Source: an uncultured Actinomycetota bacterium (GTDB lineage Bacteria > Actinomycetota > Actinomycetes > Mycobacteriales > SCTD01). From it: a stretch of 64,000 bases of DNA. The DNA lies in the NCBI GenBank assembly GCA_963761695.1, contig CAVXIB010000001.1, positions 200,057 through 264,056 of the forward strand, read 5' to 3'. Within the stretch, counting starts at the first letter, position 1. Each line of letters opens with the position of its first letter. Below the pieces are notes generated by a model. The model made no database searches, was not told the origin of the DNA, and saw nothing but the letters and a program-made list of their open reading frames with translations. The translations under genes were made by a program, and so were the position numbers. Of this stretch, positions 45,834-64,000 are shown piece after piece.

Positions 45834-46894
45834 CGGCGACCGAGCGCGAGCCCTGGCCGGACGCCGCCAAGGGGGTGCTGATCGTCCTGGTCGTGCTGTG
45901 GCACACGACCCGCAAGCACTACCGGCACCTGCCGTGGGTGCCCGATCAGGCCCTGGCCGGCTGGCAGGTCGTCAACGCCCTGCTGCAGCCCGTGCGCGTG
46001 CCCCTGTTCTTCCTCGTCTCGGGCTACCTCGCGGCCCGGGCGGTCCGCCGGCCCTGGGGGGTCCTGCTCCGTACCAGGGTGCGTCGCGACTACTGGCTGC
46101 ACCTGGTGTGGTTCCTGATCGCCTCGGCCTTCTTCGGCCTGGTGCCCGGCCTGACCACGAGCACGGCGCACTCCGGCCGCGAGGTGGCCCTCGGCGTCGT
46201 CGTGGGGTACAGCAACACCTGGTACCTCTACGCGCTCGCGGCCTACGCCGTCGTCGCCAAGCTCTGCCTGCGGCTGCCCGTTGCGGTCTCCTTCGGGGTG
46301 GGGGTCGCCCTCGCGCTGCTGGCCGAGGTCGAGGCCGTCCCGAGCCTCGGCAACACCGAGTCGCTGCTGGCCGGGCTCCTGCCGTTCCTGGTGGGCTGCC
46401 TGCTCCCGGAACGGATCGCCGCGGTGGTGGCCCGGGCCACGTGGCGGCGCACCCTGCTGGCCGCCGCCGCCTTCCTGCCGCTGGTCGGCGTGGCCGGAGC
46501 GCTCGGGATCCGGCGCGAGGTGGTCGCCACCGTCGTGCTGGCCGCGGCGGGGAGCGCCGCCGGTCTCCTGCTCGCCGCCCGCGCCACCCGGGCCTTTCCG
46601 GCAGCAGCCCTGTCGCTGGGCCGGCTGGGCCGGCTGACGCTGCCCGTCTACGTGCTGCACCTGCCGCTGCTGGCGCTGCTGCACCGGGTCGTCTCGCCGG
46701 TGGCGCTCGACCCCGGAGGCGTCACGAACACCCTGGCCGTGCTGTACCCCGCCGCTGCCGTGGCGCTGCTGGTCGCCTCCAGCCTCGTGCTGCACCGGAC
46801 CCTTGTCCGGCTGGGGCTCGGCGTCCTGTTCCGGCTGCCCACCGGCGGGCGCTCCCCCGCTAGCCTGCCCGCCATGACGAGGACGCGCGCGTGA
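45830..46894 (+). CDS. Acyltransferase-3 family membrane O-acyltransferase
   Basis: [35 protein letters not shown]. Confidence 0.88.
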
Positions 46895-47757
46895 AGGGCA
46901 TCGTGCTGGCCGGCGGCTCGGGCACCCGGCTGTACCCGCTGACCCAGGGCGTGAGCAAGCAGCTGCTGCCGGTCTACGACAAGCCGATGATCCACTACCC
47001 GCTGTCGACCCTGATGCTGGCCGGCATCCAGGACATCCTCATCATCACCACGCCGCACGACCAGGAGCAGTTCGTCCGGCTGCTCGGCGACGGGTCGCAG
47101 TTCGGCTGCTCGTTCTCCTACACGGTCCAGCCCGAGCCGAACGGCCTGGCCGAGGCCTTCCTGCTCGGTCGTGACTTCGTCGGGACCGACCGCGTCAGCC
47201 TCGTCCTCGGCGACAACATCTTCTACGGCCACGAGTTCGGCCGGCAGCTCAAGCAGTACCGCGAGGTCGACGGCGGCGCGGTCTTCGCCTACCACGTCGC
47301 CGATCCCGAGCGGTACGGCGTCGTCGAGTTCGACGAGCAGTTCCGGGCCGTGTCGGTGGAGGAGAAGCCGGAGAAGCCGCGGTCGAGCTACGCGGTGGTG
47401 GGGCTCTACTTCTACGACAACGACGTCCTGGACATCGCGGCCTCGATCGAGCCCAGCGCCCGGGGCGAGCTCGAGATCACCACCGTCAACAACGTCTACC
47501 TCGCCCAGGACCGGCTCCAGGTGGCCGTGATGGACCGCGGCACCGCCTGGCTCGACACCGGCACGTTCGCCTCGCTCATGCAGGCCGGCCAGTTCGTCCA
47601 GGTGATCGAGGAGCGACAGGCGCTGAAGATCGGCTGCCTGGAGGAGATCGCCTGGCGCGAGGGCTGGATCGACGACGAGGGCCTGGAGCGCCTCGCGGCG
47701 CCGCTGCACAAGAGCGGCTACGGCCTCTACCTGTCCGGCCTGCTCGAGCGTCGCTAG
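46891..47757 (+). CDS. rfbA: Glucose-1-phosphate thymidylyltransferase
   Basis: [45 protein letters not shown]. Confidence 0.96.
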
Positions 47758-47778
47758 GACCTGCGGCCGACAACCGTC

Positions 47779-48222
47779 GTGAACCTGCCGTCGGAGCGGG
47801 CCGCCGCCCGGGTCGCCGGTGGCGGTGCCCTGCGTGGTCTGGCCGCGGGAGCCGGCTACGCGGTGCTGCTCAGCCTGGTCCTCGCCGTCGAGGACCGGGT
47901 CGCGGGGGTGCCCGACGCGGTCCCGGGCGGGCTGGCCGTCCTGCTCATCGCCCTGGTGGTCGCCGCACCCGTCGGCGCGCTGGCAGGGGCACTGCTCGGT
48001 CTGGTGCTGTGGCCACTTGCCCGCGCGGTCGCCCCGGCGGCGGCCGCTGCTGTCGCCGCCCTCCTGGTCGGCGGGCTGGGGCTGCTGGCGTTCCCGCAGG
48101 CGGTGATCGGGGGGAGTCGCCTCGAGGTCGGCGAGGTCCTCACGCTGCGGCTGCTCCCGGCGGCGCTGGCGGCCCTCGCAGCTGCCCGGCACGCGTGGGT
48201 GACCGCTCAGGACGCTCGGTAG
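47779..48222 (+). CDS. Hypothetical membrane protein (about 4 TM)
   Basis: Hydrophobic ORF filling the gap between rfbA and DUF5703. Confidence 0.55.
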   Translation: MNLPSERAAARVAGGGALRGLAAGAGYAVLLSLVLAVEDRVAGVPDAVPGGLAVLLIALVVAAPVGALAGALLGLVLWPLARAVAPAAAAAVAALLVGGLGLLAFPQAVIGGSRLEVGEVLTLRLLPAALAALAAARHAWVTAQDAR

Positions 48223-48267
48223 TTCACCACCACCGGACCGGCGTCGCGGCGTGGTTATCGTGGCGGC

Positions 48268-48462
48268 ATGGCCGAGTACGAGTACCGGCGGGTGCCCATC
48301 CCCGCGGACGCCGACCGCCAGAAGACCAAGGAGCTGCTCGTGCTCCACGCCGAGTTCGGCGACTGGGAGCTCGCCCGGCACCGGATCTGGGCCGGCGGCC
48401 GCCGCGAGATCACGGTGCGGCGCCGGGTGCGCGCCGAGCCGATGCCGCCCCTGATGACCTGA
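48268..48462 (+). CDS. DUF5703-family small protein
   Basis: EYEYRR, AEFGDWELAR, GGRR..VRRR. Confidence 0.85.
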   Translation: MAEYEYRRVPIPADADRQKTKELLVLHAEFGDWELARHRIWAGGRREITVRRRVRAEPMPPLMT

Positions 48463-50880: not shown

Positions 50881-50881
50881 G

Positions 50882-51478
50882 TCAGCGCGGCCGGCGCGTC
50901 ATCGGCAGCACCACCGGGCACCCCGCCGGCACCGGCAGGGGGTCGCCGGACACGAAGCCGAGGCGCCGGTAGAAGGTCCAGTTGCGCGGGTTGCTGCTCT
51001 CCAGGTAGGCGGGCACGCCGTCGTCGTCGCACCGGTCCAGCACCGGCTGCACCACGCGCGGACCGACCCCCGTGCCACGCGCCGCCGGGAGTGCCCCCAG
51101 CGCCTCGAGGTACCAGTGCGGCTCGCGGGGGTGCAGACGCTCGACGACGGCCTGAAGGCGCAGCGCGCGCACCACGCCGGCGCCCAGGGCACGGCCCGCG
51201 GTGGGCAGCTGCCGGGCGGTCTCCCGCAGACCGCCCTGCCAGTGGCCCGGCGGCAGCCAGACGGCCGCCGCGGACCGCTCGGGTGTGACCAGCACGAGGC
51301 CCCCCTGGGTGCGGGCTGCGGTCGCCGCGAAGGCACCGAAGACCAGGGCGAGGCGTCGCTCGCGGTCAGCGCCTCGCAGCACCCAGGCCCAGACCGGGTC
51401 CTCCACGAAGGCCGCGCCGAGGACGGCCCCCGCGTCACGCTCGGCGGGCCGGCCGGAAAGCTGCTCGACGTCGGACAC
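50882..51478 (-). CDS. GNAT-family N-acetyltransferase
   Basis: AF.EDP, AAAVWLPP, HWYLEALG, RGTGVG, AYLESSNPRN..FY.RLGF. Confidence 0.9.
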   Translation of the reverse strand: MSDVEQLSGRPAERDAGAVLGAAFVEDPVWAWVLRGADRERRLALVFGAFAATAARTQGGLVLVTPERSAAAVWLPPGHWQGGLRETARQLPTAGRALGAGVVRALRLQAVVERLHPREPHWYLEALGALPAARGTGVGPRVVQPVLDRCDDDGVPAYLESSNPRNWTFYRRLGFVSGDPLPVPAGCPVVLPMTRRPR

Positions 51479-51665
51479 GGGGGCAGCCTGCCGGTTCCGG
51501 GCGGCGCCGTCGAGGGCCGACCGCTGGGCGGCGTCGTGGTCGCGGACGCGGCGTGCCCGCGCCGGCGACCGGTCTGCGACACGCGCCGGGCGTTCGATCT
51601 GCCCGAGCGCCCCCACGACGGCCGGAGAATGGACATACTGCGCCGATGAGCACCAGTGGACGGTC

Positions 51666-52256
51666 GTGAGCGACCGACGCCCCGGGGACGACACCCCCAG
51701 CCGCGGCTTCGGTGCACCCGGCTTCGGCGCCCCGACCGGTGGCCGCGGCTTCGGTCCCCCCTCGGGGGCGCCCGTGCCCGGGTTCGGCGGTGGCCCGACG
51801 CCCTCCGGCCCTGCTCCCGGCGCCCCCTCGTTCGGACCCCCGGCGACCCCTGCAGGACCGGGGGGCTTCGGGCCCCGGCCGCAGGCCCCTGCGGCGTCGG
51901 GCGGCCCCGGCTTCGGTGACCGGCCCGGTGGCTCGGTGCTCCCGGAGACCACCGACGCCGTCACGGCACCACTCGGTCTGCTGGCGCTCGCCGGCGGGCT
52001 CGTGGCCGTCGGGCTGCTGCTCGCCGCCCTCGCCCACGGCCGACCGGTGCTCGCCGTGCTGGCCTGGTTGCTCGCCGGCTTCGGGGCCATCGGCGCCCTG
52101 GGCGTGTTCACCGTGACCGACGCCCGGCGGCGCACGGCGCCCTGGTACACCGGCACCGCGTCGGCCGGCCTGCTCCAGGCGGGGCTCGCCGCGGCCGCCG
52201 TCCTGGTCGTCGCGCTCGCCTCCTACCAGTTCGCCGACTGGCTGGCCCGCCGGTGA
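51666..52256 (+). CDS. Operon gene A: membrane protein with GFG/Pro-rich disordered N-terminus and 3 TM helices
   Basis: Repeated GFG/SFG motifs followed by three hydrophobic segments. The stop overlaps the next start (GTGA). Confidence 0.75.
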   Translation: MSDRRPGDDTPSRGFGAPGFGAPTGGRGFGPPSGAPVPGFGGGPTPSGPAPGAPSFGPPATPAGPGGFGPRPQAPAASGGPGFGDRPGGSVLPETTDAVTAPLGLLALAGGLVAVGLLLAALAHGRPVLAVLAWLLAGFGAIGALGVFTVTDARRRTAPWYTGTASAGLLQAGLAAAAVLVVALASYQFADWLARR

Positions 52257-54994
52257 CCCGGGTCCTGCGTGCCGCACTGGCCACGCTCCTGCTCCTCGGT
52301 GCGGTCGTGCTCCTGACCGCGACACCGACGACCGCCGCACCCCGGCTCCCCACCCCGCTCACCACCCCTGCTCACCACACCCCGGGCTCAGGCCGCCACC
52401 GGTGACGCCGTCCAGCAGTTCGGCGCCTGCCTCAGCGAGCAGAAGAAGGGCGACCTGCTCCTGATGCTGGACCAGTCCGGGAGCCTGCGCCAGACCGACC
52501 CGGAGGACGTCCGCGTCTCCGCGTCGGCCTTCCTGCTCAAGCAGCTCAGCCAGACGGCCGCCGCGGCGAAGGCGTCCCTCGACGTCGCCGTCGCGGGCTT
52601 CGACGTCGGCTACCAGCGCACCGTCGCCTGGCAGCGACTCGACGCGGCCTCCCTGCCGGCCGTCGTGCGCGGCGTCGAGGCCTACCGCGACCGTGACAGC
52701 GGCATCGACACCGACTACGTCAACGCCATCGCCGGGGCCCGCGACGAGCTGCGTGCGCGCCAGCGCTCCGAGGGAGGTCGCTGCCAGGTCCTGGTCTGGT
52801 TCAGCGACGGGCAGTTCGACCTCGACGTCCGCACCACCGCGAGCAAGGCCGAGCGGTACGGGACCAGCAAGGCCTACGCCCCCGGAGCCGACCTGCGCAC
52901 CGAGGCGGGGACCACGCGAGCCGTGCAGGCCGGGACCACCTCGCTGTGCCGCAGCGGCGGGGTCGCCGACCAGCTGCGCGCCGCCAAGGTGCTGACCTTC
53001 GCCGTCGGGCTCGGCAAGCAGGAGCAATACGGCCTCATGCGCAGCATCGCCGTCGGAGCCGATCCGCAGTCCGGCCCGTGTGGCGCGCAGCCGGCCGGGG
53101 TCGTCGGGGACTTTCGCGCCGCGGACGAGGTCTCGGACCTGGTCTTCGCGCTGAACAGCTACACCGGGCTGGTCCCCCCGTCGACACGACCAGCGGCGTC
53201 TGTGCCCGCACCTCCTGTGCCGGAGCGGCCCGCACCTTCGTCCTGGACGCCTCGATCCGCGACGTCGACGTCCTGGCCGGGACGACGGCGCCGAAGGTCG
53301 ACATCCTGCTGAGCGGACCGGGCGGCGGCAGCTCGGCCCGGTTCCACTTCGAGACGCCGGGGGTGGTCGCGACGCAGACCGTGAGCGGCCAGCAGGTCGG
53401 CGCGGAGTGGCTCAGCGACCGCCAGGTGCAGATCGACCTGTCGCGGGCCGACCTCAAGGGGTGGGGCGGGCAGTGGACCCTCGTGCCCGTGGCACCGCAG
53501 GGTGCTCCCGCGGGCACCCGGGCCCGTACCCAGCTGCGCATCACGGGCGACCTCGTGCCCCGGCTCGACGGCGCGCCCGAGCTGCGGGCCGACGCGGACG
53601 CCCGGGTGGCCGTCGGCATCGGCAGCGAGCGCGACGGCAAGCCGGTCGCGGTCACCGAGGTCCTGGGCACCGCACGCGTCTCCGCGAGCCTGGTGTCGGC
53701 CGGGGGTCCGGTGAAGCCGATCGCCGAGGGAGTGGGCCTGGCGACCGCCGCGGCGGGACTGGGCGTCGACCTCAGCGGCTTCCCCCCGGGGCCCGCCGTG
53801 CTCGAGCTGCGCCTCCTGGTGCAGACCGCCGGAACGACGGTCGGGGGCCGGGCGGTGGCGGGCACGCGACTGGCCGAGCGGCGCACCACCGTCCCCGTGA
53901 CCGTCGTTCCACCGCGGGAGTTCCCCCGGGTCACCTCCGCCACCCTCGACCTCGGCCGGCGGGAGGGTGTCGGTCCGCACGACGCCGCCCTGCCGCTCGC
54001 CGGACCCGGGTGCGTGTGGCTGGAGAAGGCCGACGTCAAGACCGGTCCCTCCGGAACCGGGGCTGCCCTCACCTCGACCGCCCGCAGCGCGGACACCTGC
54101 CTGGAGGTCGACGGCACCGGGAGCCTGCCGCTGGCGCTGCGGCTGGACGACAGCGGCAACGGGACCCTGTCCGGGTTGCTCACCGTGCGGCTCGCGCCCG
54201 AGGGGGAGCCGGGGCGGGCGCTGTCGACGACCGTGCCGTTCGTCGGCGACCTCGTGCGGCCCCTCAACACCTCGGTGCTCGGGCTGACGTTCGCGCTCGC
54301 CCTGCTCCTCGGGATCGGGCTGCCGCTGCTGTTCCTCTACGCCCTGCGCTGGTGGACGGCCCGGATTCCCGGCGAGGCCCTGCGGGTCGGCACCGTCCCG
54401 GTGCGGCTCGTCGGCCGGGACGTGCAGCGCGACGGCGGGCCCTTCCAGCTCGACCTCGCCAGGGACACCCGCTTCCAGGGGGTGCCCGAGTCCGGCTTCC
54501 GGCGCCTGGACGTCGAGGGACTCGTGCTGCAGACCCGCACCGGCGTGTCCCCCACCTCGACGCCGTGGACCGAGGTGACCGCCGCGGGCTCGGTCGTCGT
54601 CACGGCCGACGGCGCGGGGCGGCTTCCCCTCGGGGTCCACGGGTCATGGGTCGCCCTGCTCGACCCCGGCCGGCCGGCCGAGGCGAAGGTCGTGGTGCTC
54701 CTGCCCACCGACGCCAGCCCCGCCATGCTCGACCAGGTGGCCCGCGAGATCCGCAGCCGGTTGCCCCAGCTGGCCCAGGAGGCCCGTGATCTCGTGCCGT
54801 CGCCGGGCGCCGGACCCGAGGGCGACGGCGGCTCCCCCGCGCCCGGCGGGTTCGGCACGCCGCCTCCCGGGTCCCCGATGCCGGGCGGGTTCGGCACGCC
54901 GCCCCCCGGGTCCCCGCCTCCAGGGTCTCCACCTCCCGGGGAGTTCGGCGCGCGACCACCCGGTGGGTTCTCCCCTCCCCCCGCGGCTCCCTGA
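52253..54994 (+). CDS. Operon gene B: signal peptide + vWA (MIDAS) + beta-rich ectodomain + TM + cytoplasmic Pro/Gly tail (apparent frameshifts at ~52370 and ~53175)
   Basis: MTRVLRAALATLLLLGAVVLLTA signal peptide, DLLLMLDQSGS (DxSxS), DTDY, VWFSDG, TM LGLTFALALLLGIGLPLLFLYAL, PGGFGTPPPGSP repeats. Confidence 0.85.
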
Positions 54995-55045
54995 CCGACC
55001 GGGCCCCGGCCCGACCTCGCTCGTCCCCTCTCGATCGGAGCTCCT

Positions 55046-58000
55046 GTGCGTCCCTTCCTCCTCGTCGGCTGCGGTGGGTCCGGCGGCGTCACGCTGCAGT
55101 TCCTGCTGGACCAGCTGGCCGCCGACCTGTCGCTCAGGGGTGTGACAAGGTCCCGGACGCCTGGCAGTTCCTGCACGTCGACGTGCCCGTCTCCCCGGAC
55201 GGCGTCCGGGCGGGGCTGCCGCCGGTCGTCGACCGCGCACCCCAACGGGACCTACGCCGGGCTGGCCCCCGCCGCCGGCTCCTACGCGGGAGTCGCCAAC
55301 GCCCTGGTGCAGCAGCTTCTCGCCGCCGACAGCTACGCGCAGCTCGCCACCTGGTTCAGCAACCCGGCCAAGGTACCCCGTGCCCATCGGCGAGGGCGCC
55401 GGTCAGCGTCGCGCGGTCGGCCGCGTGGTCACGCTCGCCCGCCTCGCAGGTGCGCGACGGGCTCGCACCGCCGTCACCAGCATGAACGCCGCCGGGGTGC
55501 GGGGGGAGCTACGGACGCTCGGCCAGCAAGGTCTCGCCCGGGGAGCGAGGCCTGGTCGACAGCCCGCCCCTGGTCGATCGTGGTGTCGTCCATGGCCGGT
55601 GGGGCCGGCGCCAGCATGGTGCTCGACGTCTGCCGCGTGCTCAGCCAGCAGCCGAGCGTCGACCCGGCGTCGACGGCACTGTTCCTCTACACGCCCGAGA
55701 TCTTCGAGCACTGCCCGACAGCCGCGTCAGCGGCGTCCCCGGCAACGCCCTGGCGATGACCGGGGAGCTGCTGCCACCCAGCTCGGCGCGGCTGCCGCCG
55801 ACGACGTCGACATCTTCGAGGCGCTCGGGCTGGGGCAGGGCGCGTGCCGGACGGTCCGCGCCGTTCGGCCGCGTCTTCCCGATCGGGGCGCGCATCGGCG
55901 AGAGCGGCGCCGCCTTCGCCGACGGCAAGCTCGACCAGATCTACCGCGGCATCGGCCGCGGGCTGGCGGCCCTGATGCTCAGCGGCGAGGCCACGCAGCG
56001 CTGGGTCGGCTTCGACCTGACCAACGGCGGCGGCGCTCGACCCGATCGGGCCGACTTCGGCTGGTGCGCCGCCGAAGAAGGACCTGCAGTGGGGCTCGTT
56101 CGGCTTCGCCCAGCTCAACATGGGACGCGACCGGTACGCCGAGTACGCCGCCCAGCGACTGGCCCGCGCAGGGGGTCCAGCAGCTGGTCGCACGGGCACC
56201 TCCAGCCGGGCGACCCCGGGACGGACCAGGAGCAGCGCGACCGGCTGGTGGCCGAGCGGCTCCCGGCCTTCATCGCTGCGCCTGGGCTCCCGGCTCCGGG
56301 TCAGAGCCTCGAGCACTGGTTCGACGGGTCTTCGTCAACGCCAGCTGGGCCAGCGGCGCAGGCGACTCGTCGACCGACACGTCGAGCGCGAGCTCGCCGC
56401 AGGTGCCGGCGGCGCAGCTGCAGCAGTGGCTCGCCAACGTGCAGAACGCCGTCGCAGACACGGCGCCCCGGCTCACGACGACGCCGCCAGCCGAGCGGCT
56501 ACCGACATCGTCTACGCCTGGTACGAGCGGACCCTGCCCACGACCGAGGCGCCGTCGAGCGGGCCGTCAGCACCTTCGGCCTGCCGGCGACGCTCGCGAT
56601 GCTCGAACCGCGTCGGGCGCGGCCTCGACGCCATGGCCCGGGCATGACGCGAGCGCGGCCCAGGGCTCCGGCAGCGACGCCGCGCTGTCCGACCCGACGT
56701 GTGCGCCAGAGCCGCCGCCGTCGGCAGGGCAACATCGGCCTCGCGGCACGGATCCGTGCAGCTCGTCCGGGACGGGCTACGCGCGACGTCCTGCGACCGG
56801 GCCGTCGCTCGGACACGCCGCGGCCAAGCTCGCGGAGGTGCTCGGCGCGCTGCGCGAGCGAGCTACCTCGCGCCGCTGCGCGCGGCGCTCGGCGACGCGT
56901 CCGCACCGCTGCGAGACGCGGTCGGGAGCGCCGCAAGCGCGGCGCCCTCGCTGCAGCTGCGCACCGACGAGTTCGCCGAGTGGCCGGTCGAGCGCTGCGA
57001 CCAGCCGGTGCCCGCGCCGGTTCACGCACGCGCAGAACGAGGTGCTGCTCATCGACGCCGCCCAGTTCGCCGGGCAGTTCGACCAGCACGTGCTGCGCAC
57101 CATGAGCCTCACCGACCGTCCGGTGCTCGAACGCCCCGGACGCCCTCGACCTCGCCGCCCGCGAGATCGTGCTGGCCCAGTGGCCCACCACCGGGGCCCC
57201 GGTCGTGGAGCGGCTGCTCGAGCAGCGCGTGCGCTGGCGCCCCTCGGCGTTGTCGACCGAGCCGGGCGGCAACGAGCCGGTCGCCACCAAGCGCGGTCAG
57301 TACCGGCTGGCCGTGGACCCGAGGGAGGTGCTCGACCGGGCCCGTCGTGGACGGGGCGGCCGACGTACCCGTTCGAGCAGTTCGTCAGCACAGCCCTGCG
57401 CGACTACGTCGGCGCCGAGGAGCTCGGCGAGTCGGTGCGGGCCGAGCGGCTCGAGGAGGTCGCGCGCAAGTTCCGCGAGCACCCTGCAGCTGGCCCACCC
57501 GCTGGTGGCCGTCAACCCCGAGCTGGTGTCACGGCTGCACGGGGGGCAGCAGGCGCGGGTCGCCTACAAGTTCAGCGACGTCCCGTTCCAGGGCCTGGCC
57601 CTCGCCGACGACCTCAAGCGCTTCCTGGACGCGCCCGGCACGCACCCCTCCTCGGTGGACTTCCTGGACAGCGCCCTGCGGTCGACGTCGTCCGCGACGA
57701 GGATCGACGTCTTCGGCTCCTACCCGCCACTGGCCCCGCTGGCCTTCACCTCGCTGCTGACGCCCCTGGCCAGCGGCTGGGCCGAGGCCAACCTGCCCGC
57801 GGCGCGGGAGTCGTTCTACAGCGGGCGACGGTCCCGGCGCCTGGCCGGCGCGCTGCCGATGAACGAGCGGCAGCGACGGGCGATCGTGGCCGGCTGGTTC
57901 GTCGCTCGTCTGACCGGGCGGCTGCGCCTGCCGGGAGAGGTCAGCGGCGTGTCTGCCGTCCAGGTCTGGGACGACGCCGACAACGGCTGGCTGTCGTTCC

Positions 58001-58551
58001 CCCACCCCCTCATCGTCCCAGCCCTCGAGCTCAACCGGACGCCCAACAACTACCTGCCCGCCGTGCTGCTGTCCTACCTGCTGGCCGCCGCGCAGGCGAC
58101 GGCCAACGAGAGCCTGCTCCCGCTGCGTCCCTACACGCTGCTGCGCAAGCACTGGGACAGCTCGACCGAGGGTGTCGACCTCCGCGTCGACGACAACCCG
58201 GCGCTGCTGACCGCCACCGAGCGCTTCCGGGCCCACTTCGCCGGCGGCCGCATCCCCGACGGCGCCCCCAAGGCGTACGCGACGCCGCCGACCGGCGACC
58301 TCGTGGTGGACAAGAAGGCGGTCGTCGACCGGCTGGTCGTGGTCCGCGACACCGTCGCCGCCGACTACCTGCCCCCCGCAGAGGGGGCGTCGCAGACCGC
58401 GGGCCGGTTCGCGACGCTGAAGCGACCGGACGACCTCTGGTCGATCCCGCTGTTCCACGAGGTCGCCCCGGACGTCCACTGGGCCACCTCGCAGCTCATC
58501 CGGGTCATCCAGGACGGCGTGGGCGCCGCCGAGTCCGACGTGCTGATCTGA
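55046..58551 (+). CDS. Operon gene C: large FtsZ/tubulin-like GTPase (Tubulin_2/FtsZ-like family; many apparent frameshifts at 55.1-57.5 kb)
   Basis: FLLVGCGGSGG, WQFLHVDVP, GAGQRRAVGR, VVSSMAGGAGASM.LDV, LFLYTPEIF, then a long helical C-terminal region. Confidence 0.85.
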
Positions 58552-61335
58552 TGGGCCGCGCCGTCGTCGTGGTCCTCGCGCCACCCGGAGCCGTGCCCGC
58601 CGCCGTCCGCGACGTCCTGCGCGACTGGGTCTCGCTCGGGCTCGTCCAGCCTTTGGTCTGGGTGGAGGCGGTCGACGTCGATCCGGGCGGCGCGCTGTCG
58701 AGCGTCGTCGGGACGCACCTGCTCCCCGGCGACGCCCCGCGCGTCCGGGTGCAGGACCACCTCGCGAACGAGCGCTCGCTGGAGGTGCTCCGCCTCGTGG
58801 CCCTCGGGTCGGTCGGCGCGGAGACGACGCTGGTCCCGGCCGCGCTCGCCGGCCACCTGAACACCCAGCTGAGCGCGGCCGCCCCGGGCCGGCTGGTGGC
58901 CCTGCAGTGCGTGCTGACGAGGCAGGGCGCCGGGGGGTGGGAGCCCGACCTCGCCGTTCCCGGCTGGCGCACGCTCGTCGTCGCCCCGGAGGACTCCTGG
59001 AGCCCGGGGCGCACCACCACGGAGTTCGCCGTCGACGGCAACGACGCGGAGTTCGTCGCCCACGCCGCGGCCGGGCTGGCCTCGGTGGCCGGTCTGTGGA
59101 CGGGCGTCGGCCAGGGACCGTTCGACGGCGCGTCCTCGGCCAGCGACGAGCCGCAGGTGGTGCGGGCGTACCTGCGGCGCCTCGACACCGCGGCGCTGAC
59201 CAGCCGGCTCCGGCGCACCCTGACCGACGTCTCGGCCGGCCTCCCGCTCCCGCAGAGCACCCAGGGCCGGATCGAGGCCATGCAGGACCCGGCGGCCGGC
59301 GTCGGCCAGGTGGCGCAGGCGCTGGTCGACCAGCACCCCGCGCTGTTCGAGGTGGCCTGGGTGCAGGCCGAGCAGGTCGCCAAGAAGCGGATCACCGCGT
59401 GGGCCGCGATCGCGCTCTTCTTCGCCTTCCTGTGGAGCGCGCTGCGGGGGGCTCCGGGCAACCTGCTGGCCCGGCTGCAGGACCGCGGGGCGATCGCCAT
59501 CGCCCGTCGGGTGCAGGCAGCCCTGTTCGGGGGCGACAGCCGCTACGAGGTGGTCATGCGCGGTCTGGACGCCTCCGGCCAGACGGCGGGCGTCGGAGAC
59601 CTGTCGGCCGCGGCCGACGACGTCCGCGACCGGCTGGCGACCGTCGTGCCGACCGAGGGCGCCGCCACCGACCTGTCCGGCTTCTGGAGCGACGTCGCCG
59701 CCGGCGGCCTGTCCCTCGCCGACGGCGGCAACCACGGCTCCACCGTCGGTCCGCTCACCGTCGCCGGCACGCCCCGCGTCGTGCGCGACACGGCCCACGT
59801 CGCCCCCGCCCCGACCGACGCCTTCCCGCTTCCTCCCGCGGTGGCGGCCAGGCTGGGAACGCCGTCGGTGTCGCCCTACGACCAGCTGGCCCAGCAGCAG
59901 GCCGCCGAGGTCCTGGCTCAGGTCGCCCCCAGCGATCCCGCCAACGAAGCGCTGGCACGGTGGCGGCAGCGGACGGCGGCCAGCTACACCGGCCTGCTCG
60001 GGGCGCGCCTGTCGGGCGACGTCGAGTTCCGGCGGCAGTCGCTGAGCAGCCTGCTCGACCAGCTCCGGGTCGACGGCGACGGCGTGGACGAGTCCGAGCT
60101 CGCCCGCCCGCTGCGCGCGGCCAGGAGCATCCTGCTCAGCAGCCTGATCGGCCTCGTCGTGATCGCCGGCCTCACCTACCTCGTGCACCGGCTGGAGCTG
60201 CTGACCACCCTGGTGCTCACGCTGTCGGTCGTCGTGCTGGTGATCGGCTGGCTGGTCAGCCAGGTGCTCGCCCTGCTGGCGGAGCAGCGCAAGGTGTTCG
60301 CGCTGATGAACGCCCAGACCAGGCGCGACGAGGCGCTCGCCCTGGCCGGGCGCAACGTGCCCATCGCCGCCGCGGCGCTGTACCTGTCGACCACCCTCTA
60401 CCAGCAGTACCTGGCCTGGGCACCGGTGCTCGGTCGCTTCCTGCGCGAGCCCTTCGGTCCCGTGCCGGAGCCCGCTCCGGCGACCCGCCTGCACGGCACC
60501 CTTCCCCGGGCGGTCGGGTTCGGCGTGGCCGACACCGACGACGAGCGGCTGGCCGCCGTCGCCCACGACCTGGGGGGAGTGGTCTTCGACCGCGGCTGGC
60601 TGCAACCCCTGTGGGAGGCGTTCCTGGCCGAGGCCCCACGGCTGCTCGGCACCGAGCGGACTGGCCCTGCGCGACGACCCGCGCCTGCTCTACCAGGACT
60701 CCGCCCGCGACGAGGACGGCCTGCTGCGCCGCTGGTCGGCCGCCGTCGTCGAGCAGGGCGTCCCGGCAGGAGCCGGCGACGCCCTGTGGCGCCGGGCCCG
60801 GGCCGCCCTGGTCGGCCGGGGCGCGGCACGCCTGTCGGAGGACCTGCTGACCCACGTCGAGGTCCAGGCGCAGCAGTCCCACGGCATCACCGAACCGGTC
60901 ACCGGCAGGCAGTTCTTCACCGAGCTCACCGACGCGCTCGCCGACGTGGACCGCCACTACCTGTCGCCGCGCAGCTTCACCGACCTCGCGGTGACGCAGG
61001 ACCGGCATCGGGTCGCGGCCACGGTCGCGCTGGGTCGCAGCGACGTGGCGACCCTCGGCACGGCTGGTACGACGTCGACCGGCGTCCGCTGGGTGGAGCC
61101 GCAGGAGCGTGAGGACGGCGATCTCGACCAGTTCCTCGTCATCGTGCAGACCACCTCCGCCCTGTCCGGATCGCTGCTGACCCTGGCGTCCCGGCCGGAC
61201 GCACCGGCGGACTTCTCGACCGGGCCGGTGACCCGACCGACCGGCCGCTTCGGTGCTCCCGGCGCTCCCGAACCCAGCGGTTTCCGCCAGCCCGACGTCC
61301 AGACCACCTCCGCCGACGAGACCCCCCTCATCTGA
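58551..61335 (+). CDS. Operon gene D: large protein with alpha/beta N-terminal domain, helical stalk and TM hairpin (apparent frameshift near 60665)
   Basis: ATG overlaps the gene C stop (TGATG). MGRAVVVVL, GW.TLVVAPED, TM pair at ~60130-60280, ends DETPLI. Confidence 0.8.
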
Positions 61336-61336
61336 C

Positions 61337-62347
61337 GTGGTCGACTCCCTGCCCTCCCTCTGCTCGGCGCAGCCTCGTGCTGCTGCTCCTCACGGCTGCC
61401 CTGTTCTGGGGCGTGGCCGGGGCGGCCGCGGCCCGGCGCTCGGGTCGGTCGCGGCTGCTGGGCGCTCGTCGGCGGGCTCCTGCCCGGACTCGGCGCGCCC
61501 CTGATGCTCCTCCCGAGGGCCGGTGTCCGCACGGACCGCGCGCCCGCCGCGGCGGCTGTCCCCACCCTGCCGGAGCGGACCCTCCCCGCCGCGCCGTGGC
61601 CGGTCCCTGAACCCGGCCCCGGTTCTCCCCGTCGCCGGCTCGGGCTTCGCGCAGCAGGCGAGGGGCGGTGGGTTCGCCAGTCGCACGTCCGGGCGGGCGG
61701 TCGCCCCTCCGAGCACCGGCTTCGCGTCCACAGCCTCCGCAGCTCCCGGTCTCGGTGCTCCCGGTGCCGGTGCTCCCGGTGCCGGTGCCGGTGCCGGTGC
61801 CCCCGGGTTCGCCGTCGCCGCCCGGCGGACCGTGGCGCCCCCGGTGGTCAGCGCGGGTCCCTTCCGCGGCAGCGGGGTCGGCGCACCGCGGGGGCCTGGT
61901 CGCTGCTGCTCGCCCTCCCGGCGGCGCTCGCGGCGCTCGCCCTGCTGTCGGCATCCGCTCAGCCGTGGCTGGTCGTGCAGGCCTCCACCGTGAAGGCAGC
62001 GGGATCGGGGCCGGCACGTTCGGCTTCTCCGGACTGCTGGTCGTCGTCGGCCGCGCTCGCCATGGTGGCCCTCGCCGTCGCGCAGGTCGCCCGCCCGCGC
62101 GGCAGCTGGCCCGTGCTGGGGGCCGCCGTCGGAGCCACCGCCCTGCTGGTGTCGCTGGAGATCCTGCTGGCCACGGACACCGCCCGCGACCTCGTCGCGC
62201 TCGCCGGAGACCGCGTGCCCCGCGGCACCGGCGTCCGCTCCGGCGCTGGCGCCCGGTCGCTGCTGCTGGCCGGCGCGCTCGCCTCCCTCTGGTCGGTGCT
62301 GGCGATCGCCACCTGCCCTGCCCGCGTCGATCTCGCCCCGGCGCTAG
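61337..62347 (+). CDS. Operon gene E: multi-TM membrane protein with central Gly/Ala/Pro/Phe low-complexity linker (several apparent frameshifts; end approximate)
   Basis: Hydrophobic segments stitched across frames (LLLLTAALFWGVAGA; WSLLLALPAALAALALLS; WPVLGAAVGATALLVSLEILL; SLLLAGALASLWSVLAIA) and (GCCGGT)n repeats. Confidence 0.55.
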
Positions 62348-62374
62348 CCCGACCCGTTCAGGAGCCGCACCCTC

Positions 62375-64000
62375 ATGTCCGATCCCCGCCTGCTGCAGGC
62401 CCTGCTCGCCTGGCGTCAGGACCAGCTGGACTCGGCGCGGCCGAGGCCGCCCTGCCTCTGGTCGGCGACCTCACCACCATCGCCTCGACCGAAGGGGTCA
62501 ACCGGGCGGCGCTCGACACGCTGCCGCTGCAGCGGCTCGACCTCGTCCTGCAGTTCGCCCCCGGGGTGCTCAGCACGCTCCGGCAGGCGCGCAAGGCGGT
62601 AGAGGCGGCCGGACCGCTCCCGGAGCCGGTTCCGCCGTCGGCCGAGCCGGCCCGGTCCCCGGCGCAGAACCCCCCAGGAGTCGCCGCGTTCGCGCCGCCG
62701 GGCCGGCGCCGCCCCGACGCCGGCCCCGCCCGCCGCTGACCCGGGATTCTTCGCGTGGAGCAACCGCGAGACTCCCGCTGCGGAGGTCGCCCCGCCCCGG
62801 AGGCCGGGAGCCGGTCGGGGCCGGTCGACGGCGACGGCCCCGTCCCGTCCTCGCGCCGGCAGTCCCGCCAACGCGGCCCCGAACGCGACGAGCCGTCGCT
62901 GCGCGCGGAGGGCTTCGCCGCGTTCGACCTCGCCGCAGCCGTACCCGCAGAGGTCGGCCGGCCGCGGACCACGCCGACCGACCAGGGCATCCGGCTGAGC
63001 GTGGGAGCCCGACTCGCCCCCGGGCAGACGGTGCTGTACCGGGTGGTGCACCGGGACGACTTCGAGGTGTGGAGCCCGGACGAGGCCACCGTCCTGTCGG
63101 TCACGACGACGACCGCCGCAGTCGACCCGGGACCGTTCAGCGCCGCCGTGCGCTTCTACGCGGTCTGGGTGAACGTGGCGCGGACGAGGCCGCGGCCCGC
63201 GGCGGCCCAGCCCAGGCTGCTCGTCAAGGGGGAGGTGGTCGGCCGCCCCCACGCGGGTCCGGGTCGAGCAGGACCATGGCACGGTCTACGTCTCCTGGGA
63301 CGCCGTCGGGGCGGTCGAGCGGGTGGAGGTGCTCAGGGTGCCCGTCGCGGAGGCGGCGACGTCCACCGGCTACCAGCGCAGGTTCTCCGTCGGCGAGGTG
63401 CGCGGTCGCCGCAGCTACCAGGACGACGGCTGCGAACCCGGCACCGAGTACGAGTACCGCCTGTTCGCCGGCTGGACCGACCCGGCGACCGGCCTGGAGC
63501 GCACCAGCGCGCCGGCGACCGCGCGGGTCCTCGTCGGCACGGTGCTCACGCCGGTGCGGCGGCTCGACATCGCCGAGCGCGTCGTCGGCGACCGGACCGT
63601 CGTCGACCTCGCCTGGGACCAGCCCAGCCGCCACGACGTGGTCGTGTACCGGACCGCGACCCCTCCCTCCACCGGGGCGGCCCTGGCCGACCTCGACGTG
63701 TCGGCCCTGCCCGGGGCCGGACTGCCCGACGACCAGCGGCTCAGGGCCGAGCCGCACCTGGACGCCGGCCGGGCCGGGCTGTCCGGCATCGCCTGGCCGC
63801 AGGACTGGCCCCGGGTCCACTTCACCGCCGTCTCGATCAGCGGGACCGCTGCCCGCATCGGTGACACGGCCACCCTCAGCCGCACCAGCCGGGTCGAGGA
63901 CATCCGGATCGTGGAGCGGGTGGACTGGCAGCTGCTGACCTTCAGCTGGCCGTCCGGGGCGGTGTCGGTCTCCGTGTCGACCACGCCCCGGGGCATGACG
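62375..64000 (+). CDS. Operon gene F (3' truncated): HRDC-like N-terminus, Pro-rich linker, tandem FNIII-like beta-sandwich domains (several apparent frameshifts)
   Basis: AGGAG Shine-Dalgarno then ATG. MSDPRLLQALLAWRQ; VLYRVV; VYVSWD..VERVEVLR; Y.D.GCEPGTEYEYRLFA; VDLAWDQP..VVVYRT; LLTFSWP. Confidence 0.7.

What the first reader, a model, noticed from the sequence alone, without database searches (positions are those of the whole stretch)
51666..64000. Large vWA / tubulin-like GTPase / TM-hairpin / FNIII operon: candidate membrane-remodelling or conflict system
Seen: at least six co-directional genes with overlapping or near-abutting junctions (GTGA at 52253, TGATG at 58549, 1 nt gap at 61336), covering more than 12 kb and running off the window. 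They encode a surface vWA protein with an intact MIDAS, a ~1150 aa FtsZ/tubulin-like GTPase, three membrane proteins and an FNIII-like protein. Established: divergent FtsZ-like (Tubulin_2/PF13809) proteins occur in operons with vWA and membrane proteins, and actinobacterial FNIII-repeat proteins occur in TRAFAC-GTPase/GAP1-type predicted conflict systems. As far as I know, neither has been characterised experimentally. Inference: an extracellular vWA sensor (phage or cell contact) is coupled across the membrane to a polymerising GTPase and an effector.
Basis: partly seen in the sequence, partly recalled or inferred. Interest (0 to 1): 0.9.

Follow-up and report, generated by a model that had tools for sequence, protein, structure and literature searches.

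The report
Actinobacterial tubulin–vWA–GAP1 GTPase conflict operon
This is a divergent copy of a gene cluster already predicted by comparative genomics in 2020 to be an actinobacterial defence system built around a tubulin-like GTPase, and its many frameshifts look like assembly errors.

Summary
From 51666 to the window end lie co-directional genes for a small membrane protein, a signal-peptide vWA protein with an intact DxSxS motif, a ~1168-codon Tubulin_2/FtsZl1 protein, a ~930-aa membrane protein, a 4-TM protein and an FNIII-like protein. All three quoted junctions are exact.

GAP1 (GAP1-N2 + GAP1-M), a second vWA protein and a two-zinc-ribbon DO-GTPase follow directly. The locus is therefore the [quoted passage not shown] of Kaur, Burroughs, Iyer and Aravind (eLife 2020). 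The FtsZl1/vWA operons were first seen by Makarova and Koonin (2010).

Gene order is conserved: 63 of 69 other actinobacterial loci with enough flank carry all four downstream genes. Against a same-genus relative, the whole set sits in a ~24 kb insertion.

The frameshifts are real features of the assembly. The assembly is indel-prone genome-wide, but the first 2.4 kb of the tubulin gene is an unexplained hotspot.

Two things are new, both from AlphaFold models of orthologues. The "uncharacterised C-terminal domain" appears to contain the rest of the tubulin fold after a helical insertion. The neighbouring membrane protein appears to be a cryptic tubulin-fold protein without GTP motifs.

Function remains untested. 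Verdict: new member of a known, computationally described kind.

The parts
50881..64000 (.). Left part of a ~23.95 kb insertion relative to a same-genus genome. It continues past the window to about 74830 in window-equivalent coordinates (contig C1 about 250937-274886).
   Evidence: In G002, window 50877 aligns to C2:878716 and window 74850 aligns to C2:878770, only 54 bp apart. An imperfect 15-nt direct repeat, GGTCAGC[G/C]CGGCCGG, lies at 50880 and 74805; 5 of 300 shuffles reach 14 of 15 matches.
50885..51440 (-). GNAT acetyltransferase gene at the left end of the insertion. It is probably cargo rather than a core part of the system. The start coordinate is approximate.
   Evidence: Acetyltransf_1, E 1.6e-8. 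The GC3 path is on the minus strand over 50900-51548.
51666..52256 (+). Gene A: a small membrane protein of 196 aa with a Gly/Pro-rich N-terminus and three hydrophobic segments.
   Evidence: Translation and hydropathy. No Pfam family. Weak similarity to the ORF upstream of the vWA gene in G379, E 5e-4.
52253..54994 (+). vWA protein of about 914 codons. In order it has a signal peptide, an extracellular vWA domain with DQSGS, a beta-rich region, one TM segment, a cytoplasmic domain and a Pro/Gly-rich tail. The frame changes at about 52330-52400 and at 53166-53174.
   Evidence: VWA_2 E 1.9e-7 and VWA E 9.5e-6. Orthologue alignments run in frame 0 and then frame 2. The second break sits at a C7 run and the first among C4-C5 runs. 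TM segment from hydropathy.
55046..58551 (+). Tubulin_2 / FtsZl1-type GTPase with a long C-terminal region, about 1168 codons. There are at least 10 frame changes between 55046 and 57483 and none from 57484 to the stop.
   Evidence: PF13809, E 8.3e-8. A profile built from 42 orthologues covers positions 2-1155 across three frames. The motifs GCGGSGG, GAGQRRAVG, SSMAGGAGAS, NALAM and GRDRYAEY are all present but lie in different frames. Orthologues have open frames of 1126-1256 aa, apart from one cut short at 590 aa.
58551..61335 (+). Gene G: a membrane protein of about 928 aa with a hydrophobic helical hairpin in mid-protein. Frame 0 changes to frame 1 near 60640-60700. It is a candidate cryptic tubulin-fold protein without GTP-binding motifs.
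   Evidence: Orthologue alignments. No Pfam family. The Atlas search gives actinobacterial hypothetical clusters only. The model of the G417 orthologue has pLDDT 86, and its top structural matches are CetZ, FtsZ and tubulins, Z 7.8-9.9.
61337..62347 (+). Gene I: a membrane protein with about 4 TM segments and a low-complexity repeat at 61742-61806. It has at least 2 frame changes, and its end is uncertain.
   Evidence: Three-frame translation compared with the G417 orthologue. Tandem repeat.
62375..64000 (+). FNIII-like repeat protein. Its N-terminal helical region corresponds to the HRDC-fused FNIII component of Kaur et al. It runs off the window and stops at 64554-64556 in window-equivalent coordinates. 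It has at least 3 frame changes.
   Evidence: fn3 E 0.0017, below the cut-off. Alignments to the G417 orthologue fall in frames 1, 2 and 0. Start and stop.

Best explanation
The locus is a divergent member of the actinobacterial, tubulin-containing subtype of the GAP1-N2 'DO-GTPase' conflict systems. It was acquired as part of a ~24 kb insertion.

Shown here: the parts list and its conservation.
- Small membrane protein A.
- A membrane-bound protein with its vWA domain outside the cell.
- An FtsZl1/Tubulin_2 GTPase.
- Membrane protein G.
- 4-TM protein I.
- A cytoplasmic FNIII-like repeat protein.
- GAP1 (N2 + M domains).
- A second, TerF-like vWA protein.
- A DO-GTPase with two zinc ribbons.

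Inferred mechanism, following Kaur et al. 2020 and the models made here:
- The variable FNIII repeats, and possibly the outside vWA domain, bind an invader-derived or envelope-derived ligand.
- GAP1 passes this signal to the DO-GTPase switch.
- The switch licenses GTP-dependent assembly of the tubulin-like protein at the membrane.
- The tubulin-like protein meets protein G there. G appears to be a nucleotide-free tubulin-fold protein anchored by a hydrophobic helical hairpin.
- The resulting membrane-bound assembly contains the infection or kills the cell.

The frameshifts are most likely assembly indels, so the genes are probably intact in the organism.

Odds: identity as this system about 0.93. 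A conflict or defence role rather than housekeeping about 0.6. The specific order of events about 0.3.
For: Identity:
- GAP1-N2 E 1.5e-18 and GAP1-M E 4.6e-7, directly after the FNIII gene.
- A GTPase with CPHC and CPxC ribbons, GARASGKS, DVAGE and GKFD. Of 19 aligned members, 17 hit DO-GTPase2.
- Tubulin_2 E 8.3e-8 on the window piece and E 1.5e-36 on the G417 orthologue.
- vWA with DQSGS.
- Passages of sections 6, 27 and 29 of PMC7159879 describe this exact set.

Conservation, among 79 other loci:
- vWA upstream in 69 of 69 loci with at least 3.5 kb of upstream flank.
- Among the 69 loci with at least 9.7 kb of downstream flank: G in 69, FNIII in 69, GAP1 in 66, DO-GTPase in 66, and all four in 63.

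Mobility:
- A ~24 kb insertion relative to G002.
- GAP1-N2 found in 0 of 24 same-family genomes searched and in 1 of 16 genomes from other families of the order.

Fold:
- The tubulin orthologue's model (pLDDT 86.4) matches CetZ at Z 21.9 with 313 of 342 residues aligned. Sixteen further FtsZ/tubulin-superfamily chains score Z 11.8-20.4. The next, unrelated chain scores Z 7.8. Foldseek gives probability 1.00 to FtsZ, CetZ and TubZ.
- The G orthologue's model (pLDDT 86) has CetZ, FtsZ, CetZ2, Odin, Asgard, BtubA, alpha/beta- and gamma-tubulin as its nine top matches, Z 8.7-9.9, with 229-262 residues aligned.

Frameshifts as artefacts:
- 3 of 14 conserved genes are frame-broken relative to a relative, 0.27 changes per kb.
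- Genome-wide there are 0.52 stop-less frame switches per kb, against 0.17 in a complete relative.
- The vWA breaks lie at C runs.
- All tubulin motifs and the full profile length are retained.
Against: - No experiment on any member was found. Literature searches returned only computational work.
- None of the 10 proteins matched a PADLOC model.
- The window's own GTPase does not reach Pfam DO-GTPase1 or DO-GTPase2.
- FNIII is supported only by a sub-threshold hit, and 0 of 17 orthologues hit any Pfam family. The HRDC domain was not detected.
- The neighbours are ordinary metabolic genes, not a defence island.
- The tubulin N-terminal 2.4 kb has 4-5 frame changes per kb but only 3 homopolymers of 5 or more bases. 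It is the 6th longest stretch without a readable frame in the genome. Real decay of this gene is therefore not excluded.
- G's tubulin likeness rests on a predicted model and a middling Z. Helical-hairpin matches reach 7.5-8.7 on the same model. It has no support from profiles.
- This system is conserved and common within mycobacteria, which also fits a housekeeping role.
Confidence: 0.6

Rival explanations
1. This is a housekeeping membrane-remodelling or envelope machine, the original FtsZl1 proposal of Makarova and Koonin 2010. The tubulin-like GTPase, vWA and membrane proteins would shape membranes, vesicles or the cell wall during growth or differentiation, and the GTPase/GAP1 pair would regulate it. 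No invader is involved.
For: - Passages of PMC2875224 propose membrane remodelling and vesicle biogenesis for vWA/FtsZl1 operons.
- Most components here are membrane proteins.
- The system is widespread and strictly syntenic in Mycobacterium, Gordonia, Nocardia and Propionibacteriaceae.
- There is no recognisable toxin or nuclease effector and no PADLOC match.
- The tubulin model gives weak stalk-like matches to BDLP and Drp1.
Against: - The distribution near the window's organism is sporadic: 0 of 24 same-family genomes carry GAP1-N2.
- The locus is a clean ~24 kb insertion relative to a same-genus genome. Both points suggest an accessory, laterally moving function.
- Kaur et al. report rapidly evolving FNIII repeats and mutual exclusivity with VMAP systems (passages).
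Confidence: 0.25
2. In this organism the system is a decaying relic. The frame changes, at least those in the tubulin GTPase domain, would be real mutations, and the operon no longer works.
For: - There are at least 10 frame changes in 2.4 kb of the tubulin gene, against 0.27-0.52 per kb genome-wide.
- Only 3 homopolymers of 5 or more bases lie in that stretch.
- The GC3 signal there is weak.
- No reads could be obtained to check.
Against: - The assembly breaks conserved genes too, sometimes in clusters: one 405-aa gene lies in 3 frames.
- A same-genus genome shows 1.35 such events per kb.
- The full orthologue profile, positions 2-1155, and all nucleotide-binding motifs are still present, with no deletions.
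- The last 1.07 kb of the same gene and 3.2 kb downstream have no break. Uniform neutral decay does not predict that pattern.
Confidence: 0.15
3. This is an envelope-stress or Ter-type stress-response module. TerD, the TerF-like vWA protein, the RDD membrane protein and the Hsp70/DnaJ pair in the same insertion would point to a chaperone-assisted response to membrane or metal stress rather than to invaders.
For: - TerD, E 5e-83.
- A weak vWA-TerF-like hit on protein X, E 0.0076.
- RDD, Hsp70 and DnaJ+TPR lie in the same insertion.
- TerD lies next to the system in 7 of 69 other loci.
Against: - Hsp70, DnaJ and RDD were not found in the flanks of 80 other loci or in three fully read loci, so they are not core.
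- Kaur et al. already list Hsp70/DnaJ/TPR as accessory parts of GAP1-N2 conflict systems (passages).
Confidence: 0.08
4. These are two unrelated operons, vWA-tubulin-membrane and FNIII-GAP1-GTPase, that merely abut in this genome.
For: None beyond the lack of transcript data. Promoter and terminator scans were uninformative.
Against: The same order and strand recur with all of G, FNIII, GAP1 and GTPase downstream of the tubulin gene in 63 of 69 loci from many genera. Gene junctions overlap or abut.
Confidence: 0.02

Closest known systems
GAP1-N2-type GTPase-centric (DO-GTPase) conflict system, actinobacterial tubulin theme (Kaur, Burroughs, Iyer, Aravind, eLife 2020, PMC7159879)
   Same: - One tubulin gene with a long C-terminal region.
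- A membrane-bound protein with vWA plus a beta-rich region.
- A separate FNIII-repeat protein.
- GAP1 with N2 and M domains.
- A DO-GTPase with two N-terminal zinc ribbons and a Walker B glutamate.
- TM-containing extra components.
- Sporadic, mobile distribution.
   Different: - Protein identity to any of 80 other loci is at most 43%.
- The window's GTPase falls below the Pfam DO-GTPase models.
- HRDC and FNIII are not confirmed by profiles.
- This island also carries Hsp70 and DnaJ+TPR. The paper treats those as a separate, non-overlapping theme, although its overview does mention GTPase + tubulin + HSP70 systems.
- The paper counts one tubulin gene in actinobacteria. The models here suggest a second, cryptic tubulin-fold protein, G.
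FtsZl1 (FtsZ-like 1) / Pfam Tubulin_2 operons with vWA proteins (Makarova and Koonin, Biol Direct 2010, PMC2875224)
   Same: - A Tubulin_2 domain with T1- and T4-type glycine loops.
- An adjacent vWA protein with an intact MIDAS motif.
- A diverged GTPase and many membrane proteins in the operon.
   Different: That paper could not find the T6-H7 elements or a tubulin-type C-terminal domain in FtsZl1. The model of the orthologue here aligns 313 of 342 CetZ residues over model residues 2-991. This implies that the C-domain is present after a helical insertion of roughly 270 aa.
FtsZ, CetZ, TubZ, PhuZ and tubulins (solved structures)
   Same: The fold of the tubulin-like protein's orthologue matches: Z 14.8-21.9 for the 16 full-length superfamily chains, and 11.8 for one further FtsZ chain with 162 residues aligned.
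   Different: - Sequence identity is 10-14%.
- A large coiled-coil insertion is present.
- The protein totals about 1150-1250 aa.
- Polymerisation and GTP hydrolysis are untested.
- HMMER with the family profile finds no FtsZ or tubulin chain in the PDB.
ClyA-family alpha-pore-forming toxins (MakA, SmhB, AhlB) and dynamin-like proteins (BDLP, Drp1)
   Same: Long helical hairpins, with a hydrophobic tip in protein G. Foldseek matches are weak: E 0.011-0.039 for G and E 0.016-0.018 for the tubulin protein's stalk.
   Different: TM-scores are at most 0.19 and the probabilities are low. These are resemblances of helical hairpins only, and no membership is claimed.

Membership tests
GAP1-N2-type DO-GTPase system (Kaur et al. 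2020) | GAP1 protein with GAP1-N2 and GAP1-M domains | tested here: met
   PF20013 E 1.5e-18 and PF20014 E 4.6e-7 on the ORF starting at window-equivalent 64553. It is the only GAP1-N2 match in the genome.
GAP1-N2-type DO-GTPase system (Kaur et al. 2020) | GAP1-C domain | not tested
   No Pfam hit other than N2 and M was returned. I did not search a GAP1-C model by accession.
GAP1-N2-type DO-GTPase system (Kaur et al. 2020) | TRAFAC GTPase with a conserved Glu in Walker B and two N-terminal zinc ribbons | tested here: met
   CPHC...C..C and CPRC...CPTC ribbons, GARASGKS, DVAGE, GKFD and SALG. The protein is 37-43% identical over its full length to 18 orthologues.
GAP1-N2-type DO-GTPase system (Kaur et al. 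2020) | Match to the Pfam DO-GTPase1 or DO-GTPase2 models | tested here: inconclusive
   The window's protein gives no hit at E 0.1 or better. Of 19 aligned members, 17 hit DO-GTPase2, best E 3.7e-10. The G417 orthologue scores E 5.8e-7.
GAP1-N2-type DO-GTPase system (Kaur et al. 2020) | Protein with rapidly evolving FNIII repeats | tested here: inconclusive
   fn3 E 0.0017, 19 bits against a cut-off of 25. Of 17 orthologues, 0 hit any Pfam family. The protein is present at the expected position in 69 of 69 loci.
Actinobacterial tubulin theme of that system | HRDC domain fused to one FNIII protein | tested here: inconclusive
   No Pfam or PDB-sequence hit. A conserved helical N-terminal block exists in the family consensus. 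That it resembles HRDC is my recollection only.
Actinobacterial tubulin theme of that system | Single tubulin gene with a long C-terminal region | tested here: met
   PF13809. An orthologue profile covers positions 2-1155. Orthologue open frames are 1126-1256 aa, apart from one cut short at 590 aa.
Actinobacterial tubulin theme of that system | Membrane-bound protein with vWA and a beta-strand-rich region | tested here: met
   VWA_2 and VWA hits, a signal peptide and one TM near the C-terminal third. It lies upstream of the tubulin gene in 69 of 69 loci. The beta-rich content was not modelled.
Actinobacterial tubulin theme of that system | Mobile, sporadically distributed neighbourhood | tested here: met
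   A ~24 kb insertion relative to G002. GAP1-N2 is found in 0 of 24 same-family genomes and in 1 of 16 genomes from other families of the order.
Actinobacterial tubulin theme of that system | Mutual exclusivity with VMAP ternary systems in the same genome | not tested
   No VMAP search was run.
FtsZ/tubulin superfamily (the tubulin-like protein) | Glycine-rich nucleotide-binding loops of the T1 and T4 type | tested here: met
   GCGGSGG at 55067 and SSMAGGAGAS at 55589. The equivalent columns are invariant in 42 orthologues. The loop names are assigned from memory.
FtsZ/tubulin superfamily (the tubulin-like protein) | Tubulin/FtsZ fold including the C-terminal domain | tested here: met
   Tested on the G417 orthologue, not on the window's broken copy. 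CetZ Z 21.9 with 313 of 342 residues aligned at rmsd 3.8. Alpha/beta-tubulin Z 18.9 with 367 of 427 aligned. The next unrelated fold scores Z 7.8.
FtsZ/tubulin superfamily (the tubulin-like protein) | GTP hydrolysis and polymerisation (T7 loop function) | not testable with these tools
   Needs biochemistry.
FtsZ/tubulin superfamily (protein G) | Tubulin/FtsZ fold | tested here: inconclusive
   The nine best matches among 48,161 chains are all from the superfamily, Z 8.7-9.9, with 229-262 residues aligned over model residues 1-888. Helical-hairpin matches on the same model reach Z 7.5-8.7. Foldseek found none at E 0.001 or better.
FtsZ/tubulin superfamily (protein G) | Glycine-rich nucleotide-binding loops, or sequence-profile similarity | tested here: not met
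   The consensus of 45 sequences has no such loops. hhalign against the tubulin family gives probability 0.2. There are no FtsZ or tubulin hits in PDB sequences, although the true tubulin family has none either.
Known anti-phage defence systems in PADLOC-DB 2.0 | Match to any PADLOC protein model | tested here: not met
   None of the 10 proteins or frame pieces matched at E 0.01 or better.

The most novel reading that the evidence does not exclude
The actinobacterial system contains two tubulin-fold proteins, not one.

- The FtsZl1 GTPase carries a complete tubulin fold split by a coiled-coil stalk.
- The conserved neighbouring membrane protein G has the same split topology, lacks nucleotide-binding loops and has a membrane-inserting helical hairpin at the tip of its stalk.

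The two would pair like the halves of a tubulin heterodimer. Under control of the DO-GTPase/GAP1 switch, that pair would nucleate or cap a membrane-anchored polymer. This would be a bacterial membrane-bound 'pseudo-tubulin plus tubulin' machine used in conflict.
Probability: 0.25. Interest if true: 0.7.

Novelty: new member of a known kind. Interest (0 to 1): 0.42.

Why it matters
FtsZl1 tubulin-like proteins have had no known function since they were described in 2010. The GAP1/DO-GTPase systems that contain them were predicted in 2020 to be immune systems of multicellular bacteria. In the papers I could search, neither has been tested at the bench.

This window adds a divergent member and a clean example of the whole set moving as one ~24 kb insertion. 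The survey shows a strictly conserved gene order across many actinobacterial genera, which gives a firm parts list for experiments.

Both Tubulin_2 and GAP1-N2 also ring in the Corynebacterium glutamicum control genome. That points to a tractable laboratory host.

The model-based suggestion would, if it holds, change how the machine is pictured. It proposes that the tubulin fold is complete but split by a stalk, and that the conserved membrane protein next door is a nucleotide-free tubulin-fold partner.

The window's own copy is a poor experimental handle because the assembly is full of frame errors.

Tried and rejected
- **DNA search in relatives.** I searched 51000-64000 against 40 relatives. 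Only the first 425 nt and low-complexity repeats matched, so it gave no synteny information. Two of those genomes, G005 and G030, are flagged unpublished. They enter only the negative counts.
- **PADLOC.** No hits.
- **Pfam on gene pieces.** No family for the pieces of A, G, I and the tubulin C-terminal part.
- **Sequencing runs.** A search for runs holding 54900-58600 listed none. Read laying was therefore not used, and the frameshifts could not be checked against reads.
- **Locus search with the 9-sequence alignment.** A 3-sequence alignment worked.
- **Foldseek on the G model.** Nothing at E 0.001 or better.
- **Sequence-level tests of G against tubulin.** hhalign of the G family against the tubulin family gave no similarity. 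HMMER of the G and tubulin family profiles against PDB sequences gave only helical-bundle noise for both, so sequence tests cannot decide G's ancestry.
- **Complex prediction.** Complex prediction with the G N-domain, G C-domain and tubulin N-domain returned 'no answer', score 0.01 against a mark of 0.32, and controls were not run. This is no evidence either way.
- **HRDC.** Not detected by Pfam or by PDB sequence search.
- **Promoter and terminator scans.** At chance level.
- **Integration hotspot idea.** I tested whether the insertion site is a defence hotspot in G003. The 33 kb there encodes transporters, acyl-CoA dehydrogenases and a LuxR regulator, so there is no support.
- **Hsp70, DnaJ and RDD as core parts.** Not found in three fully read loci or in 80 flanks, so I treat them as accessory cargo.
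- **Supplements.** The supplementary tables of both papers were not available. Figure 1-source data of PMC7159879 may already list close relatives of this locus, or protein G's family.

Full report
**What is in the sequence**

The window has about 75% G+C, so long ORFs occur in all six frames. I called genes from third-position GC, stop-to-stop frames and alignments to intact orthologues.

From 51666 onward one run of + strand genes is seen:
- A, 51666..52256.
- A vWA protein, 52253..54994.
- A tubulin-like protein, 55046..58551.
- Membrane protein G, 58551..61335.
- A 4-TM protein I, 61337..~62347.
- An FNIII-like protein starting at 62375 and leaving the window.

Pfam results:
- VWA_2/VWA on the second gene. 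The motif DQSGS fits DxSxS, and a signal-peptide-like start lies at GTG 52253.
- Tubulin_2 on the third gene, E 8.3e-8.
- Only a sub-threshold fn3 match on the last gene, E 0.0017.

**Beyond the window**

The window is C1:200057-264056 of a 401,716-bp contig in a 3.2-Mb draft with 23 contigs at 76% completeness. Reading on, in window-equivalent coordinates:
- The FNIII gene stops at 64556.
- GAP1 runs from 64553 to about 67217, with GAP1-N2 E 1.5e-18 and GAP1-M E 4.6e-7.
- Protein X runs from about 67201 to 68456. Its G417 orthologue carries a DLSAS motif, and the window's C-terminal part gives a weak vWA-TerF-like hit, E 0.0076.
- A GTPase runs from 68494 to 69672. It has two zinc ribbons, GARASGKS, DVAGE and GKFD.
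- Then come TerD (E 5e-83), an RDD membrane protein, an Hsp70 lacking the end of the profile, and a DnaJ+TPR protein.

**What it is**

The only paper in the searchable library that contains 'GAP1-N2' is Kaur, Burroughs, Iyer and Aravind, eLife 2020. I read section 27 in full and passages of sections 6, 29, 35 and 36.

It defines GTPase-centric conflict systems by two features:
- A TRAFAC 'DO-GTPase' with a Walker B glutamate, often with two N-terminal zinc ribbons.
- GAP1.

The GAP1-N2 type adds a protein with rapidly evolving FNIII repeats.

The paper describes the actinobacterial tubulin theme as follows:
- A single tubulin gene fused to an uncharacterised C-terminal alpha-helical domain.
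- One FNIII protein fused to HRDC.
- One membrane-bound FNIII protein fused to vWA and a beta-rich domain.

That is this locus.

Makarova and Koonin 2010 (passages) had earlier described FtsZl1 operons with vWA proteins, diverged GTPases and membrane proteins, and proposed membrane remodelling.

I found no experimental study. A 2026 preprint mentions DO-GTPases only in passing (passages).

**Is the gene set conserved?**

The C-terminal part of the tubulin protein was found in 9 of 400 other genomes of the class. The open frames are 1126-1256 aa, apart from one cut short at 590 aa.

I read three intact loci in full. The closest, G417, has in order:
- TerD.
- vWA protein, 1046 aa.
- Tubulin_2 protein, 1151 aa, E 1.5e-36.
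- G homologue, 924 aa.
- 4-TM protein.
- FNIII-like protein.
- GAP1.
- X.
- DO-GTPase2, E 5.8e-7.

A scan of one genome per species gave 281 relatives, of which 80 loci were kept. They come from Mycobacterium, Mycolicibacterium, Nocardia, Gordonia, Rhodococcus, Propionibacteriaceae, Kineosporiaceae, Corynebacterium, Brevibacterium, Nocardioides, Microbacterium and others.

Leaving out the query's own genome:
- The vWA gene lies upstream on the same strand in 69 of 69 loci with at least 3.5 kb of upstream flank.
- Among the 69 loci with at least 9.7 kb of downstream flank, G is present in 69, the FNIII protein in 69, GAP1 in 66 and the GTPase in 66. All four are present in 63.
- Three of the six incomplete loci have GAP1 so far downstream that the GTPase would lie beyond the fetched flank.
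- I and X were not detected with the G417 queries in any of the 69. TerD was found in 7.

The window's proteins are at most 43% identical to any of these.

**Mobility**

GAP1-N2 was found in 0 of 24 same-family genomes searched, three of them from the same genus, and in 1 of 16 genomes from other families of the order. Several of those genomes are incomplete.

Against same-genus genome G002, window 50877 aligns to C2:878716 and window 74850 aligns to C2:878770. About 23.95 kb is therefore inserted in this genome between two convergent genes, one a DUF6910/6929 gene and the other a ceramidase.

The insertion carries a GNAT gene on the minus strand, the whole system, and TerD, RDD, Hsp70 and DnaJ+TPR.

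A 14-of-15 direct repeat flanks the insertion. Five of 300 shuffles do as well, so this is only suggestive. No integrase was seen.

In G003 the same flanks are separated by 33 kb of transport and metabolic genes, so the site is not a defence hotspot there.

**The frameshifts**

Orthologue alignments and a family profile show that the window's genes change frame without stops:
- The vWA gene changes twice.
- The tubulin gene changes at least ten times between 55046 and 57483.
- G changes once.
- I changes at least twice.
- The FNIII gene changes at least three times.
- GAP1 and X change once each.

The assembly as a whole does this:
- Three of 14 conserved genes are frame-broken relative to a complete same-family genome, 0.27 changes per kb.
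- A GC3 hidden Markov path counts 0.52 stop-less frame switches per kb genome-wide. The same method gives 0.17 in the complete relative and 1.35 in a same-genus draft.

The vWA breaks sit at a C7 run and among C4-C5 runs.

In the tubulin gene, all conserved motifs and the full profile (positions 2-1155) are present, though scattered over three frames.

I therefore read the breaks as assembly indels. The hotspot in the tubulin N-terminal 2.4 kb is not explained by homopolymers, since only three runs of 5 or more bases lie there. No reads could be listed. I give real decay of that gene about 0.15.

**Folds**

Because the window's copies are broken, I folded the intact G417 orthologues with alignments of 42 and 45 unaltered orthologues.

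The tubulin protein (pLDDT 86.4, pTM 0.81):
- Foldseek gives probability 1.00 to FtsZ, CetZ and TubZ.
- In the all-against-representatives search, CetZ scores Z 21.9 with 313 of 342 residues aligned at rmsd 3.8. Sixteen further superfamily chains score Z 11.8-20.4. The next, unrelated chain scores 7.8.
- The aligned range runs from residue 2 to about 913-1032. The tubulin C-terminal domain therefore seems to lie after a helical insertion at roughly residues 390-650.
- This is more than either paper reported for this region.

Protein G (pLDDT 86.0, pTM 0.79):
- There is no Foldseek match at E 0.001 or better.
- The nine best of 48,161 representatives are CetZ, FtsZ, CetZ2, Odin and Asgard tubulins, BtubA, and alpha/beta- and gamma-tubulin. 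They score Z 8.7-9.9 with 229-262 residues aligned over model residues 1-888. TubZ and PhuZ follow at 7.8-7.9.
- Helical-hairpin matches to the central stalk reach 7.5-8.7 on the same model, so the margin is small.
- The G family has no glycine-rich loops and no profile similarity to the tubulin family.

I rate a tubulin-like fold for G at about 0.7. If it holds, G is a nucleotide-free paralogue anchored by a hydrophobic helical hairpin.

A complex prediction gave no verdict.

**How it most likely works**

The parts, their order, their conservation and their mobility are shown. The rest is inferred.

Following Kaur et al., the variable FNIII repeats are the likely sensor, GAP1 the coupler and the DO-GTPase the switch. 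The vWA domains and the tubulin would build a regulated, cytoskeleton-like assembly at the membrane.

My models add a concrete picture: a stalked tubulin GTPase meeting a stalked, membrane-inserted tubulin-fold partner.

Whether the outcome is containment, membrane damage or something unrelated to invaders is open. The housekeeping reading of 2010 keeps about a quarter of the odds.

**Verdict**

The untested biology and the two model-based structural points keep it moderately interesting.

Noticed in passing
whole genome G000; examples C5:30125-31239, C5:122655-123505, C12:184424-185138: The assembly is indel-prone. Three of 14 conserved genes change frame relative to a same-family genome, and there are 1521 stop-less same-strand frame switches in 2.9 Mb of coding sequence. 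This probably explains the 76% completeness of a 23-contig genome. A same-genus draft (G003) looks worse, at 1.35 events per kb.
   Followed up: partly
window 50880-50894 and window-equivalent 74805-74819 (L002:12805-12819): An imperfect 15-nt direct repeat, GGTCAGC[G/C]CGGCCGG, lies at both ends of the ~24 kb insertion. Five of 300 shuffles match as well. No integrase or tRNA was seen at the ends.
   Followed up: partly
window-equivalent 69762-74739 (L002:7762-12739): TerD (71% identical to the TerD next to the G417 system), an RDD-family membrane protein, an Hsp70 matching profile positions 1-480 of 599, and a DnaJ+TPR protein lie inside the same insertion. They were not found next to the system in 80 other loci. 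The coding-like signal continues in another frame to 74739, so the DnaJ+TPR protein may be longer.
   Followed up: partly
window 61742-61806: A tandem repeat with periods of 6, 9, 15 and 21 nt lies inside gene I. It encodes Gly/Ala/Pro- or Pro/Val-rich low complexity, depending on frame. It is the reason for many 88-93% identical short DNA hits across unrelated actinobacterial genomes.
   Followed up: no
window 46864-48462: Three consecutive ORFs lie in the same frame (46864..47757, 47758..48222, 48223..48462), separated only by single stops. The first is a sugar-nucleotidyl transferase. The in-frame stops may be further assembly errors or real gene ends.
   Followed up: no
window 54840-54963: Tandem repeats of 39 and 54 nt encode the Pro/Gly-rich tail (GGFGTPPPGSP...) of the vWA protein. 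Gene A has a similar Gly/Pro-rich N-terminus.
   Followed up: no
control genomes: Corynebacterium glutamicum is the only one of 14 control genomes that rings for both Tubulin_2 and GAP1-N2. A laboratory workhorse therefore probably carries a version of this system.
   Followed up: no
G003:C1:181001-215000 (L125, L126): In the same-genus genome G003, the genes flanking the insertion site are 33 kb apart. They are separated by ABC transporters, acyl-CoA dehydrogenases, an AMP-binding enzyme and a LuxR-type regulator.
   Followed up: partly
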